Shown here: piece by piece, positions 36,550 to 41,265 of the stretch
Layout of the letters: every line of letters begins with the position of its first letter
How positions within the stretch are numbered: position 1 is the stretch's first letter
Source: Antechinus flavipes
Lineage: Eukaryota
DNA length: 64,000 nucleotides
Direction: 5' to 3'
NCBI RefSeq assembly: GCF_016432865.1
Contig: NC_067398.1
Coordinates: 83,390,001-83,454,000 of the forward strand
The notes under the pieces: generated by a model
Databases searched by the model: none
Told to the model about the DNA's origin: nothing
What the model saw: the letters and a program-made list of their open reading frames with translations, nothing else
Program-made: the position numbers and the translations under genes

Positions 36550-37133
36550 TTTTAAATTTTGTTTTGTCTTAAATTTATATGTATTTTTCCATTATATATG
36601 AAAATAATTTTAAACATTTTTTGAGTTTCAAATTCCCTCCCTCCCTCTCATTTCCCCTTGAAAATGCAAGCAATCTGATAAGATTATAGATGTAAAACAT
36701 ATTTCCATATTAGCCATGTTCTAAAAGACAAGGCACCCTTCCCCCCAAAACAAGAAAAATAAAGTTTTAAAAAGTATTCTTAGCTCTGCATTCAGACTCT
36801 TATCACTTTTTTCTCTGAAGGTGGATAGCATTTTTCCTCATAAATCCTTTGGATTTAACTGTCTTGCTAAGAATAGCTGTCATTCACAGTTGATTCACCA
36901 TTCAATATTGCTGTTACTGTGTACAATGTTTTCCTAATTCTGCTCACTTCACTTTGCATGAGTTCACATAAGTTTTCCCAGGTTTTTCTGAATCCATCCT
37001 GCTCATCATTTTTTACTGCACAATATTATTCCACTGTAATCATATACTACAGACTGTTCAGCCATTCTCCAATTGATAGATATCCTATCTATCTTTCCAA
37101 TTCTTTAATACCACAAAAAGAGCTGCTATGAGA
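36550..37133 (-). mobile_element. Older L1 fragment, left half of the host of the ERV retrocopy (resumes at 40065-40680)
   Basis: ccacaaaaagagctgctatg continues as ctatgagtatttttt...gatacagacctagt...atcaaagggtatgcacag after the insertion. Confidence 0.75.
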
Positions 37134-40064
37134 TTTTTTTTTTTTTTTTTTTTTTTTTAGATCTCTAGAAGCAAAGCAAAGTTTATTTACGTTCTGGAGA
37201 AGGGGGATCCACAAATCGAGCAGACAATTGAAGGGAGGAGGTACCGTAGGGGGTAGGGTCGGCGCTTTTATCCCTAACGCAAATTCCCCCTCCCACCACT
37301 GACCCTCATCCTTATTGGCTGAGGATCTTACATTCTAAACGCGGGAACTACCCAAGAAATTGAACTTGGCCAATAAGTACATAGGTGCCCATATTTGGCT
37401 GAAATAGGGAGGATAACAAGAAGGGGACTTAAGTATGCCCTTAGGGGGCTAACAGGGAGGGGATAGCAGGAAGACTTTAAGTATGTCCTTAAGATAGCAG
37501 GGAGGAGACATTAAATATGCCCTTGACTTAAAGTCCTTCAAGCCTACTCAAACTTTGAAATAGATGAAGCCTTACTCGATTTTCGCAACTGTCTTGAAAG
37601 ATCTCATTTTATCTCTTTCAGTCTCCCCTCTTATTTATACACTGAGATCTCTTCAACATCTTTATACAATAAAATATACAAATTTAGTTTCACACAAACT
37701 TCCCCTTCCTCAGCTAACAAATAATCCAGCATAAGGCTGTTGTAAAACAATATTTTGTTTGAGTAACTTGGTCAGCCAAAAGATCTAGTGCCTCAGCAGT
37801 CTGATTGGTGATAATCTCTACAACTGCTTGAAGCTTAATTATCCTGTTCAACATATATATTGGGGTTATATATCCCCAACTTCCATCTTGAGCCCAAGTG
37901 GCTGGCTCATACTCTATTCTTTCTGGAGGCCAGGAATCACCCCAACCATTTGCATCTCCAGTCTGGAGGTATACCTCTCCAATGGAGGTGTCTAAACCCC
38001 ATTTCTCTCCTCCCAAATCATCATTTGCCTATTCAGGAAGAAAGAAAAATTTTGGCCTTATTAGTCCAAGTAGGAGAGTATAAGCAGTTAAGCCACAGAT
38101 CTAATAATGACCCATTAGAATAGGTTGTTCCCTCAAAAATATGTCTGAACTATTCCTTGTAAAAGAGCAATATTGCTGGTCCCTCATCCCTAGGGGACCT
38201 TCCCCTACAAAGGTGACATACTGACATTTCCATAAACCCTGATCCTTCCTCCTACAACTGGCAACTGGCCATTGACCTATTGGGTTAGAGGTATTCCAAA
38301 ATGTTTCCCAGGTGTCCCTGCGGTGACATGGTACCAACCCATTGATGTCAGACAGGTAAAAATTTAAGTTTTCCAAATCTTTGCAGCCTCCCTCGTGTCT
38401 CCTAGAGACAGAGCAGACAAAGGAAGTCCTTTGTCAATCTGCAGCAATTCCTGAGGAATTGTGCCAGAGCTCCCAAGAGCTCCAAATGACGACTGCAATG
38501 TCCATTTGACAACTGCAGTGTCCACTACAAGATAAGGAAAGAAAAAGTCCTTGTCCAGAGTTAAATCCACTAACATACACTATTTCCCAGCTCCCTGTTT
38601 AACAAATCCTATCTTCTATCAATGGCCACTGATATTTCTCTTCTAAGTTCCAGAAATCAGCCCCATTATGAATTTGGGATCAGTTACTAAGGATCCAGGC
38701 GGGGCTTAAAAGGTATAGATTCCCATGGCCATTAGCTCAGTCATTGGGATCCACCAATTGATCCAACAATTTGATAAATTAAAAATTCTCCCTATATTCT
38801 GCATGAGCAGGAGGAGCTGATTCTCATCTCTGGAAGATAAAGGTCTGGTTTCTATGGCTATCATGAGGAAAGAGGCAGACCCAAAGCTCAGGAAAAGCCC
38901 CATGAGAATTTCCCAAAGTAATTAATGTAAGAAAAGTCATACAATTACAGCGCACTGGATTCAGAATGTGTCCCATTCAGTGGAAGTCCCCTCCTCAAAT
39001 GTAATTTGAGGTCTCCCCATCTTCAACTGTCCACTCAGATAAAGGTGGCGCCACAGGTCCTTTTGTTCTGGTGTGGTGTGTCCAGCCTCACGCCCAGGTG
39101 CGAATTGCAGTGTCCGAGAGGTCAGTATTATCTGGTAGGGTCCATCAGGGTCCGTCCCAGCAGAGTCAGCTTCTCATCCTTCCAGGAATGAATTAACACC
39201 CAATCTCCACCTGAATTCTATGAAGAGGGAAACCTAGGAGTCTGAGCTATTAACCCTTCTGTTGAAATTCTTGTAAATGTCTTAGCAATGGTTTAACACC
39301 TCTTAAGAAAATTCCTTTGTCTCAAGATAGGGTCCCAGTTTCCCATAGGACAAGCCTAGAGAGGATGACCGTACAATACTTGAAAGCCCAATTTCTCTAC
39401 ATGGCTTGGTTCCGATTCTGACCAGAGCAAGAGGTAGTTGGGTCTCTAAACATAATTTAGTCAGTTGCCATTTTATTTCCTGGTTCATCCTTTCTACTTT
39501 CCCAGAAGAGGGAGGAAGCCAAGGGGTGTGGAGATCCCAAGTGATTTGATCACATTCTGCACCACCTGGGCAGAAAAATGTGTTCCCTGATCCGAGTCTA
39601 TCATCTCCACTATTCCATATCTAGGAATAATTTGTTCTAATAAGACCTTACTGTCGAGGCAGTTGCTCTGGCTGAGGGGAATGCCTCCACCCATGAGGTC
39701 AGATGGTCCACTATGACCAGCAAGTATTTGAGGCGACCCACTGGTGGCAGCTCAGTGAAGTCCACCTGGATGCTTTGGAATGGTCCGATTCCCGGAGGTC
39801 GTCCCCCTTTTGGGATCTGGCGTTGAGCAGCCTTGTTAGTCCTTCGACAAATGAGACAGCGTCCACCAGTTGTCGGGCCATTGTATATAGGCCAGGGGAA
39901 CATACCTTGTCAGCACAGCATCACAGGTTTTGGACATCCCAGAGACTGCCCTGGTGCAGTTGCTGAAGGACCTGCCTCATACTTGCTTTGGTCAGTACCT
40001 CTCTACCATCAGGTAAGAGCCATCGTCCTTCCGAGTTCCCAACTGCTCCGAGAGTCGAGGCCTT
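37134..40064 (-). mobile_element. Defective class I (ERV3/HERV-I-like) endogenous retrovirus retrocopy: partial pol, deleted env, PPT, U3-R, poly(A)
   Basis: Integrase remnants CLIC, QVDFTELPPVGRLKYLLVIVDHLTSWVEAFP, IDSDQGTHF, SSGKVERMN; env remnants [48 protein letters not shown] at 37621-37632; LTR start TGAAAG at 37620; AATAAA at 37182-37187; T25 at 37134-37158; multiple frameshifts. Confidence 0.9.
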
Positions 40065-41265
40065 CTATGAGTATTTTTTATATGTATAATTCTTTTTCCT
40101 TTGAGATACAGACCTAGTGATGTATAGTGATATCAAAGGGTATGCACAGATTTATAGCTCTTTGGACATTGTTCCAACTTGCTCTCCAAAATAGTTGGAT
40201 CACAATAGGATGAAAATGCTATTTGCATTCAGAGAGAGAACTATGGAGACTAAATGTGCGTCGATGCAAAGTATTTTCTCCTCTTTTTTTTTGTTTTTTT
40301 TTTTTCTTTCTTGTGGTTTTTCCCTTTTCTGATTTTTCTTTCACAACATGATTAGTATGGAATATGATTGTACATTTATAACCTATATGCAACTGCTTGT
40401 TGTCTTGGGGAGGAAGGAGGTAAGAGAAGGAGGGAGAAAAAATTTGGAACACAAATCTTACAAAAATGAAAACTATTTTTCCAAGTCATTGGAAAAATAA
40501 AATACTATTGAAGAAAAAAATTGTTGAATCAGTTCAAACTCCACCAACAGTGCATTAGTGTCTCATTTTTTCCACATTCCTCTTAATCTTTCTAATCTGT
40601 CATATTAGCCAATCCAATAGGCATGGAGTGTTGCCTCAGAGGTGTTTTGCATCTCTCTAATCAATGGCTACACATATTCCTAAAACTCTGGTCTGACCAT
40701 GTTACTCTCCCACTCAGGAATCCTCAATAATTCCCATTACCTCTAGAATAAAAAGAAAACTTCATAGCCTATCACTTATTCTCCTCATCTCTTCCCAGCC
40801 CCACAACCTAGATTTCCAAACTTGTTTTACATAATTTGCCTTCATGAACTCTATTTTTTCAACCAAGCTGGCCAATTGTCTGTTCCATGAATTGACATTC
40901 CATCCCCTATCTTTTCTCTCCTTATCTGTGTACCAGCTATTCCACATTCCTGGACTCTCTTACTGTTTTCTGTCTCACAAATTTCTGCATTCCTTCAATG
41001 ATAAACTCTCTTTAACTCCTCTCCCCCCCCCCCCACCCCCTATGAAAGCAAAGAGATGGAATTCATGAGTTTGACCACTTAGGGGAGCTGGGGTGGGGGC
41101 CATCAGAGAAGAAGGCAGTTTGCTCTCTGGAAATAGAAATGGAAGAAAGGAAATGTCTAGCATATATTTTTGGACGTCATTAATGAGCAAATTTGTTTTG
41201 CTTCACTATGCATATTTGTTTAAAAATGTTTTGTTTTTCTTTTAAAGAAGGATTAGGAAAAAGAA

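What the first reader, a model, noticed from the sequence alone, without database searches (positions are those of the whole stretch)
37126..40079. Retroviral mRNA retrotransposed by LINE-1 (processed ERV pseudogene)
Seen on the minus strand: 5'-truncated start inside pol, integrase and env remnants, PPT AAGAGGGGAGAC, LTR start TGAAAG, CCAAT (37314-37318) and TATA-like GATAAAAG. AATAAA (37182-37187) is followed 23 nt later by a 25-nt poly(A), with no U5 and no 5' LTR. The flanks carry a ~15-bp TSD, ctatgagatttttt (37126 onward) and ctatgagtatttttt (40065-40079), ending at a TTTT/AT L1-endonuclease-like site. Knowledge: integrase gives 4-6-bp TSDs and two full LTRs, whereas U3-R-poly(A) ends, 5' truncation and long TSDs mark L1 target-primed reverse transcription. 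This is well known for HERV-W and uncommon in most other ERV families. The env motifs WPPERI and [18 protein letters not shown] are ERV3/HERV-I-like. Inference: a marsupial class I ERV family that spreads partly by using L1 machinery; the CpG-rich U3 suggests a fairly young copy.
Basis: partly seen in the sequence, partly recalled or inferred. Interest (0 to 1): 0.75.

Follow-up and report, generated by a model that had tools for sequence, protein, structure and literature searches.

The report
LINE-1-copied retroviral RNA in a marsupial
A dead 2.9-kb tail end of an endogenous retrovirus, ending in a poly(A) run and flanked by a 15-base duplicated target site, sits inside an older LINE-1 element of what is likely a carnivorous marsupial and was likely pasted there from its RNA by LINE-1 enzymes, a route already known for several primate retroviruses, so it is a new example rather than a new mechanism.

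Summary
On the minus strand, 40064-37159 is integrase, a broken env, a polypurine tract and a 462-nt U3-R that stops 23 nt after AATAAA in a 25-A run. New here: both flanks belong to one older L1 ORF2 copy, and two paralogous L1s in the window carry the duplicated 15 bases only once. So the duplication is a real target-site duplication (chance about 4e-4 at one place) at a TTTT/AT site. The env is ERV3-1-like. HYAL2 points to a dasyuromorph marsupial. Best reading: L1 target-primed reverse transcription of a polyadenylated ERV RNA, 5'-truncated (0.8). Not shown: that the family's LTR goes on into U5, the orthologous empty site, and reads across the junctions; no genome or second copy was available. 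The family-level claim is weak: in four public runs LTR depth is 27-36 times env depth with a step at the LTR edge, the pattern of ordinary solo LTRs. Youth is unresolved. The kind is known (HERV-W, HERV-H, HML-2); I found no marsupial or ERV3-like case in 8 paper searches.

The parts
40065..40079 (-). 5' copy of the target-site duplication (15 nt); + strand TTTTTT/AT at 40074-40081 is an L1-endonuclease-like nick site
38948..40064 (-). 5'-truncated pol remnant: end of the RNase H-integrase linker, zinc-binding, core and C-terminal parts of integrase; broken, with at least 4 frame switches (near 39860, 39650, 39545, 39380-39160)
   Evidence: Pfam rve pieces; tblastn of P0046, P0057, P0058, P0091
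37631..38915 (-). env remnant, ERV3-1-like; broken (at least 3 frame switches near 38760, 38705, 37755; 5 in-frame stops in the main segment against P0002); homology ends at 37679 just after the immunosuppressive domain, and about 100-150 codons of TM are missing before the PPT
37621..37632 (-). polypurine tract
37159..37620 (-). U3-R of the 3' LTR (462 nt): starts TGAAAG; three imperfect repeats at 37403-37525; CCAAT 37314-37318; TATA-like 37265-37272; AATAAA 37182-37187; no terminal inverted repeat
   Evidence: high-copy in four runs
37134..37158 (-). 25-A run (about 19 A of tail plus 6 A of the TSD)
37126..37139 (-). 3' copy of the target-site duplication (14 nt, one base shorter than the 5' copy)
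36860..37139 (-). host L1, ORF2 3' end, downstream half; same sense as the insert
   Evidence: aligns to paralogues at 46611-46892 and 45089-45399; the paralogue matches human L1 ORF2p 1168-1264, E 8e-12
40065..40202 (-). host L1, ORF2 3' end, upstream half
   Evidence: aligns to paralogues at 46508-46663 and 45351-45480
46508..46892 (+). paralogous old L1 copy that carries the target sequence once (stand-in for the empty site; not part of the insertion)

Best explanation
The 2.9-kb insert is the integrase-env-U3-R end of an ERV3-like class I endogenous retrovirus with an A tail and a 15-bp target-site duplication inside an older L1, and it was likely made by LINE-1 ORF2p acting in trans on a polyadenylated ERV RNA. 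Inferred steps: a provirus of this family was transcribed in the germ line and polyadenylated 23 nt after the AATAAA in R; L1 endonuclease nicked the T-rich strand of the old L1 at TTTT/AT (40079/40080); the T-rich end primed reverse transcription on the poly(A); copying stopped after 2.9 kb just upstream of the integrase domain; a second nick 15 nt away gave the duplication. The copy has no gag, RT, primer-binding site or U5 and cannot replicate. It is a processed ERV pseudogene that has decayed neutrally; part of the damage, such as the TM deletion, may already have been in the source locus (untested).
For: Shown: exact anatomy. Both flanks are one L1 ORF2 3' end, and each flank aligns across the same 15-16 bases of two paralogous L1s, which hold them once. 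TSD chance 4e-4; only the 2 TSD copies among 322 A runs. Pol homology starts at the first codon after the TSD; one X8 contig follows the insert to 40066 and then goes on with 10 unlike letters (table 8, record 32), so the family sequence leaves the window at the junction. No 5' LTR, RT or other ERV piece in 64 kb. Literature passages: the three defining marks of HERV-W processed pseudogenes are a U3-R 3' LTR, a poly(A) tail, and a TT/AAAA motif with a 5-15 bp TSD (PMC5016936); poly(A) sites lie 10-30 nt after AATAAA (PMC2664473); L1 is transposition-competent in the Tasmanian devil (PMC7614631).
Against: No complete LTR of the family was seen, so U5 loss is inferred (searches gave none). No read or contig across either junction or across an empty site was listed. 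The nick site is TTTT/AT, one base off the TT/AAAA motif, and the TSD copies differ by one base. The structure cannot tell a true ERV mRNA from an L1 read-through RNA that ended at the LTR poly(A) site. An abstract reports widespread L1 decay in Australian marsupials (PMC5010896).
Confidence: 0.8

Rival explanations
1. Orphan L1 3' transduction: an active L1 upstream of an ERV remnant read through it, the RNA ended at the LTR poly(A) site, and the 5'-truncated copy kept only the ERV part. The enzyme and marks are the same, but in cis, with no affinity of L1 for ERV RNA.
For: Identical end structure expected. 3' transductions are documented in devil DFT2 (PMC7614631 passage). A heavily damaged source locus fits a passive passenger.
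Against: It needs an active L1 directly upstream of, or inside, a provirus in the same sense, and at least 2.9 kb of read-through. No L1 sequence lies inside the TSD-bounded insert (self-blast).
Confidence: 0.1
2. An ordinary integrase-made provirus that later lost its 5' part and U5, with the A run expanded from the host L1's own A tract and the duplication made by a local rearrangement.
For: The family's bulk looks like normal proviruses and solo LTRs (LTR/env depth 27-36). The host L1 has an A6 at that spot.
Against: Two deletions would have to end exactly at the host junctions, lose no host base and leave a 15-bp duplication; integrase duplications are 4-6 bp (recalled). The A run begins at the spacing of a poly(A) site.
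Confidence: 0.04
3. A different non-LTR element of marsupials, such as an RTE, supplied the reverse transcriptase.
For: Reports of reduced L1 activity in Australian marsupials (abstract of PMC5010896); RTE-like protein fragments seem to lie in the window near 42200-43750 (identity recalled, untested).
Against: A pure A tail with a T-rich nick site is the L1 signature (passage); RTE insertions usually end in short repeats (recalled).
Confidence: 0.03
4. Assembly artefact: the A run is a mis-join between an ERV contig and an L1 contig.
For: The window has three N gaps, one 1.2 kb away; no bridging read was seen.
Against: The L1 resumes after the insert exactly where it broke off, minus 15 bases, and the two TSD copies differ by one base; a mis-join would not produce this.
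Confidence: 0.03

Closest known systems
HERV-W processed pseudogenes (135 of 213 HERV-W loci; PMC5016936 passages; PMC5537654 passages)
   Same: Class I ERV RNA ending in U3-R and poly(A), with a TT/AAAA-like site and a TSD at the top of the 5-15 bp range.
   Different: Another ERV lineage (ERV3-1-like env) and host (marsupial). One copy only; in HERV-W such copies are over two thirds of the group, and nothing here shows that share. 5'-truncated inside pol, so the R-U5 5' end is absent.
L1-retrotransposed HERV-K(HML-2) rec mRNA loci ERVK-30 and ERVK-31, and spliced HERV-H copies (PMC3590776 and PMC4351823 passages)
   Same: Sporadic L1-made copies in families that otherwise spread by integrase; poly(A) plus a 10-13 bp TSD; 5' truncation in ERVK-31. 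Probably the closest parallel in frequency.
   Different: Those are spliced subgenomic RNAs; this one keeps the pol-env junction, so it comes from unspliced genomic-type RNA (whether the TM gap is a splice is untested).
ERV3-1 (ENR1)-like env of wombat P0001, tammar P0003, echidna P0002 and platypus P0005
   Same: 68-76% identity over the conserved SU-TM junction; the piece falls in an unresolved group with them (87/93 support, not starred).
   Different: Broken, with most of TM missing; protein-level relatives only, no nucleotide-level family name obtained.
Dasyurid class I clades MEGrv 1-3 (PMC11334065; main text parts 1-3 of 7, supplement parts 1 and 10 of 12)
   Same: Class I ERVs in the same host group; MEGrv 2 has an LTR of similar length (486 nt).
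   Different: The MEGrv 2 record read by eye has another LTR and another type of env; four short LTR words from the window found no LTR-context match in the eight records. The paper has 0 occurrences of 'processed pseudogene' or 'ERV3'. MEGrv 1 and 3 were not read in full.

Membership tests
L1-processed ERV pseudogene (HERV-W type) | poly(A) tail at the retroviral poly(A) site | tested here: met
   25-A run 23 nt after AATAAA; normal range 10-30 nt
L1-processed ERV pseudogene (HERV-W type) | 5-15 bp target-site duplication | tested here: met
   15/14 nt, one indel; single copy in two paralogous L1s; chance 4e-4
L1-processed ERV pseudogene (HERV-W type) | TT/AAAA insertion motif | tested here: met
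   + strand TTTTTT/AT, that is AT/AAAAAA on the insert strand: one mismatch to TT/AAAA
L1-processed ERV pseudogene (HERV-W type) | 3' LTR reduced to U3-R against a full family LTR that has U5 | tested here: inconclusive
   No terminal inverted repeat, but no full LTR of the family was found
L1-processed ERV pseudogene (HERV-W type) | 5' end at R-U5, or 5'-truncated with no U3 of a 5' LTR | tested here: met
   Starts inside pol at 40064; no other LTR or pol piece in the window
L1-processed ERV pseudogene (HERV-W type) | empty orthologous site with one copy of the TSD | not testable with these tools
   No genome held; laid contigs were swamped by L1 paralogues; paralogous L1s serve only as a stand-in
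HERV-W group itself | HERV17/LTR17 sequence, syncytin-1-type env, primate host | tested here: not met
   Host is a marsupial; of 41 env hits most named ones are ERV3-1/ENR1-like, one lizard hit is named syncytin-2-like, none syncytin-1
Integrase-made provirus | two full LTRs with TG...CA ends and a 4-6 bp duplication | tested here: not met
   One incomplete LTR, 15-bp duplication
Class I ERV, ERV3/HERV-I-like | ERV3-1-type env (WPPERI region, gamma-type immunosuppressive domain) | tested here: met
   E 2.7e-31 and 76% to wombat ERV3-1-like Env; tree groups it among these but without starred support
Class I ERV, ERV3/HERV-I-like | RT phylogeny with HERV3, HERV-I or HERVIP, and primer-binding-site type | not testable with these tools
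   RT and PBS are absent from the copy. Integrase hits are unnamed echidna, bird and Antechinus proteins; the best full one (P0046) is MLV-like in RT/RNase H. The 'HERV-I-like' label for pol is recalled, not tested; HERV3, HERVI and HERVIP are hard to separate (PMC4724089 passage)
Family preferentially mobilised by L1 (as HERV-W) | processed copies form a large share of the family's internal copies | tested here: inconclusive
   Depth steps 27-36-fold at the LTR edge and is flat inside (pol/env 1.4-1.9), which favours solo LTRs and shows no 3' bias; depth is a rough measure only

The most novel reading that the evidence does not exclude
This ERV3-like family of carnivorous marsupials is a second, independent HERV-W-like case: a sizeable share of its internal copies were made by L1, perhaps from a defective, TM-deleted master locus that could spread only by borrowing L1.
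Probability: 0.12. Interest if true: 0.65.

Novelty: new member of a known kind. Interest (0 to 1): 0.3.

Why it matters
As one copy it is a clean, ordinary retrocopy whose template happens to be viral. It extends L1-made ERV copies, described for HERV-W, HERV-H and HML-2, to a marsupial and an ERV3-like lineage, and warns that fragment counts of dasyurid ERVs include some non-proviral copies that cannot be dated by LTR pairs. It would matter more if many such copies exist: reviews call HERV-W the only human group mainly spread by L1 and say the determinants are unknown (PMC5537654 passages), and the timing of L1 activity in dasyurids is disputed.

Tried and rejected
Whole-genome copy count: no genome is held. 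Second LTR or ERV piece in the window: none. Full family LTR: a 21-nt U3 pattern in metagenome contigs gave 0; a TATA-to-AATAAA pattern gave 1 locus, L001, unrelated to the window by blastn and taken as chance, and 0 in viral contigs; the env piece gave no confirmed locus in viral contigs; four motifs gave 0 in the supplement of PMC13641905, where long cells are cut. Laying contigs of 4 of the 24 listed runs: the joint and loose-end tables were filled by L1 paralogues (825 and 3966 rows not shown), letters at the A run were skipped, and no long piece over the flanks was listed; this says nothing on presence or absence of the locus. Dating from shared words: a share of 0.48 in run X1 bounds the distance to the nearest sequence there at about 2.3% per site, but it is not an age, because X1 may or may not hold the orthologue; at 7 of the 40 listed places (208 in all) every X1 contig had another letter. 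Membership of MEGrv 2: rejected on LTR and env read by eye. R-region fold: not better than shuffles (z -0.8). Pfam found nothing for the env pieces, the L1 paralogue or the first 38 codons; the tRNA-synthetase hit at E 0.025 on a flank frame is taken as noise. The env tree has 5 of 22 branches starred and none holds the window piece. Earlier-findings look-ups returned no similar ERV case. A regulatory effect on HYAL2 or HYAL1 was considered (the U3 promoter points antisense towards HYAL2, 7 kb away) but nothing here tests it.
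Full report
Setting. The window holds exons that read as RASSF1, TUSC2, HYAL2 and a second hyaluronidase (only HYAL2 was tested, the other names are recalled). HYAL2 exon protein is 93% identical to Sminthopsis crassicaudata, 89% to koala and 75% to platypus, the 3 hits below E 1e-150 among 2055 candidates. 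The host is therefore a marsupial, likely a dasyuromorph; the species is not resolved. No whole genome is held.

Observation. On the minus strand the order is: 15-nt TSD (40079-40065), pol remnant from 40064, env remnant, PPT (37632-37621), U3-R (37620-37159, 462 nt), 25 A (37158-37134), then the rest of the second TSD copy (to 37126). The second copy is one base shorter, and its six A are the end of the A run. AATAAA lies 23 nt before the run, and the end lacks the inverted repeat of the LTR start. U3 holds three imperfect repeats, whose number varies among family contigs (joints near 37442-37527).

The target site. A self-search showed that both flanks match old repeats elsewhere in the window. 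The copy at 46567-46899 translates to a match with human L1 ORF2p residues 1168-1264 (E 8e-12). Aligned separately, the upstream flank runs along that paralogue up to and through the TSD bases, and the downstream flank starts again on the same bases; a second paralogue at 45089-45480 gives the same result. So the insert splits one old L1 in the same sense, no host base is lost at the junction, and 15 bases are doubled. The chance that a given A run is followed by the 9-nt non-A core with at most one edit is 4e-4, and of 322 A runs in the window only the two TSD copies are. The + strand reads TTTTTT/AT at the upstream edge. This is a stand-in for the empty site, not the orthologous empty site itself.

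The insert. Two pieces match Pfam rve below the curated cut-off (2 of 10 pieces). A search with one piece found 47 integrase-bearing proteins among 99 candidates, the most alike being echidna P0046 (80%) and Antechinus P0057 (76%); P0046 is MLV-like in RT and RNase H, so the element is class I. Homology begins at the first codon after the TSD, and one X8 contig follows the insert to 40066 and then departs, which may mean a 2-nt microhomology (one contig; 1 in 16 by chance). The env piece found 41 proteins among 149 candidates, most named ERV3-1 or ENR1 Env-like, led by wombat (76%), echidna (70%) and tammar (68%); a tree of 25 rows (24 of the 41 hits, chosen for having names or marsupial-like rank) places it in an unresolved group with them. 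Both genes are dead: at least 4 frame switches in integrase and 3 in env, 5 stops in the main env segment, and env homology ends at 37679, 46 nt before the PPT, while six of seven relatives checked have 53-156 residues after the same motif or a long tail. Six pol proteins find no RT, RNase H or protease anywhere in the window and the LTR has no second copy.

The family. Twenty runs of 7 coded organisms hold part of the stretch, none more than 48% of its words. In the 4 runs laid, all 30 bins are covered, so the family is multi-copy in 4 organisms. Mean depth over three LTR bins is 27-36 times that over ten env bins, the drop is a step at the LTR edge, and pol is 1.4-1.9 times env. The tool warns that such depth is no copy number, so this is a rough hint. 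It fits many solo LTRs and fewer internal copies, as for an ordinary ERV family, and does not show the gradual 3' excess that many 5'-truncated L1 copies would give. The call could not show U5, the junctions or an empty site.

Age. For youth: a pure A run; CpG o/e 0.44 in U3-R (0.70 near the promoter) and 0.32 in pol against 0.05-0.08 in the flanks; at most about 2.3% distance to the nearest sequence in run X1. Against: an indel in 15 TSD bases, many breaks, env CpG o/e 0.09. The two can be reconciled if the template was an already damaged provirus, which is untested. The copy is younger than its host L1, which is about 71-78% identical to its paralogues.

Mechanism. A tail at the poly(A) site, a 15-bp duplication, a T-rich nick site and 5' truncation are the marks of L1 target-primed reverse transcription (PMC5016936 passages). 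I give 0.8 to trans-mobilisation of an ERV RNA and 0.1 to an orphan L1 3' transduction, which leaves the same marks and occurs in devils (PMC7614631 passages). A decayed provirus, another LINE or a mis-join share the rest. The anatomy is shown; the enzyme, the RNA template and the loss of U5 are inferred.

What is known. HERV-W has 135 processed pseudogenes among 213 loci, and a review calls it the only human group mainly spread this way, with unknown determinants (PMC5537654 passages). Sporadic L1-made copies are reported for HML-2 and HERV-H (PMC3590776, PMC4351823 passages; Pavlicek 2002 and Goodchild 1995 were seen only as citations). A survey of dasyurid ERVs (PMC11334065; main text parts 1-3 of 7, supplement parts 1 and 10 of 12) does not mention processed pseudogenes or ERV3, and its class I clade with the nearest LTR length is a different element. 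Eight searches listed no marsupial or ERV3-like case; the library lacks most subscription papers, bioRxiv supplements are closed, and Repbase or Dfam could not be consulted, so the family may already have a repeat-library name.

Verdict. A real, well-marked processed ERV pseudogene: a new member of a known kind, apparently in a new host and ERV lineage. Interest 0.3. It would deserve about 0.65 if a genome-wide count showed that L1 made a large share of this family's copies (probability about 0.12).

Noticed in passing
window 37631-37679: env jumps from just after the immunosuppressive domain to a short open stretch ending at the PPT; about 100-150 codons of TM are missing. It could be a private deletion, a shared mark of a defective master copy, or a splice; not resolved.
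   Followed up: partly
window 37621-38980 versus 38980-40064: CpG o/e is 0.09 in env but 0.32 in pol and 0.44 in U3-R; uneven CpG loss within one insert, possibly a mosaic template.
   Followed up: no
window 37403-37525: Three imperfect repeats of 31-50 nt period in U3; family contigs in all four runs include forms that skip about 84 nt here.
   Followed up: partly
window 25798-30030 and 56987-59241: HYAL2 and a second hyaluronidase gene (likely HYAL1) flank the insert; the 27 kb between them is rich in old L1 fragments.
   Followed up: partly
window 42234-43750: Frames that look like RTE-type LINE remnants (identity recalled, not tested).
   Followed up: no
window 41266-41464, 51109-51290, 53510-53874: Three assembly gaps, at least two beside low-complexity purine-rich repeats.
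   Followed up: no
P0002, P0005, P0046 (monotremes) and P0001, P0003, P0057, P0091 (marsupials): The nearest named env and integrase relatives are from Australian marsupials and monotremes, ahead of placentals and birds, a hint of a regional ERV3-like lineage; tree support is weak.
   Followed up: partly
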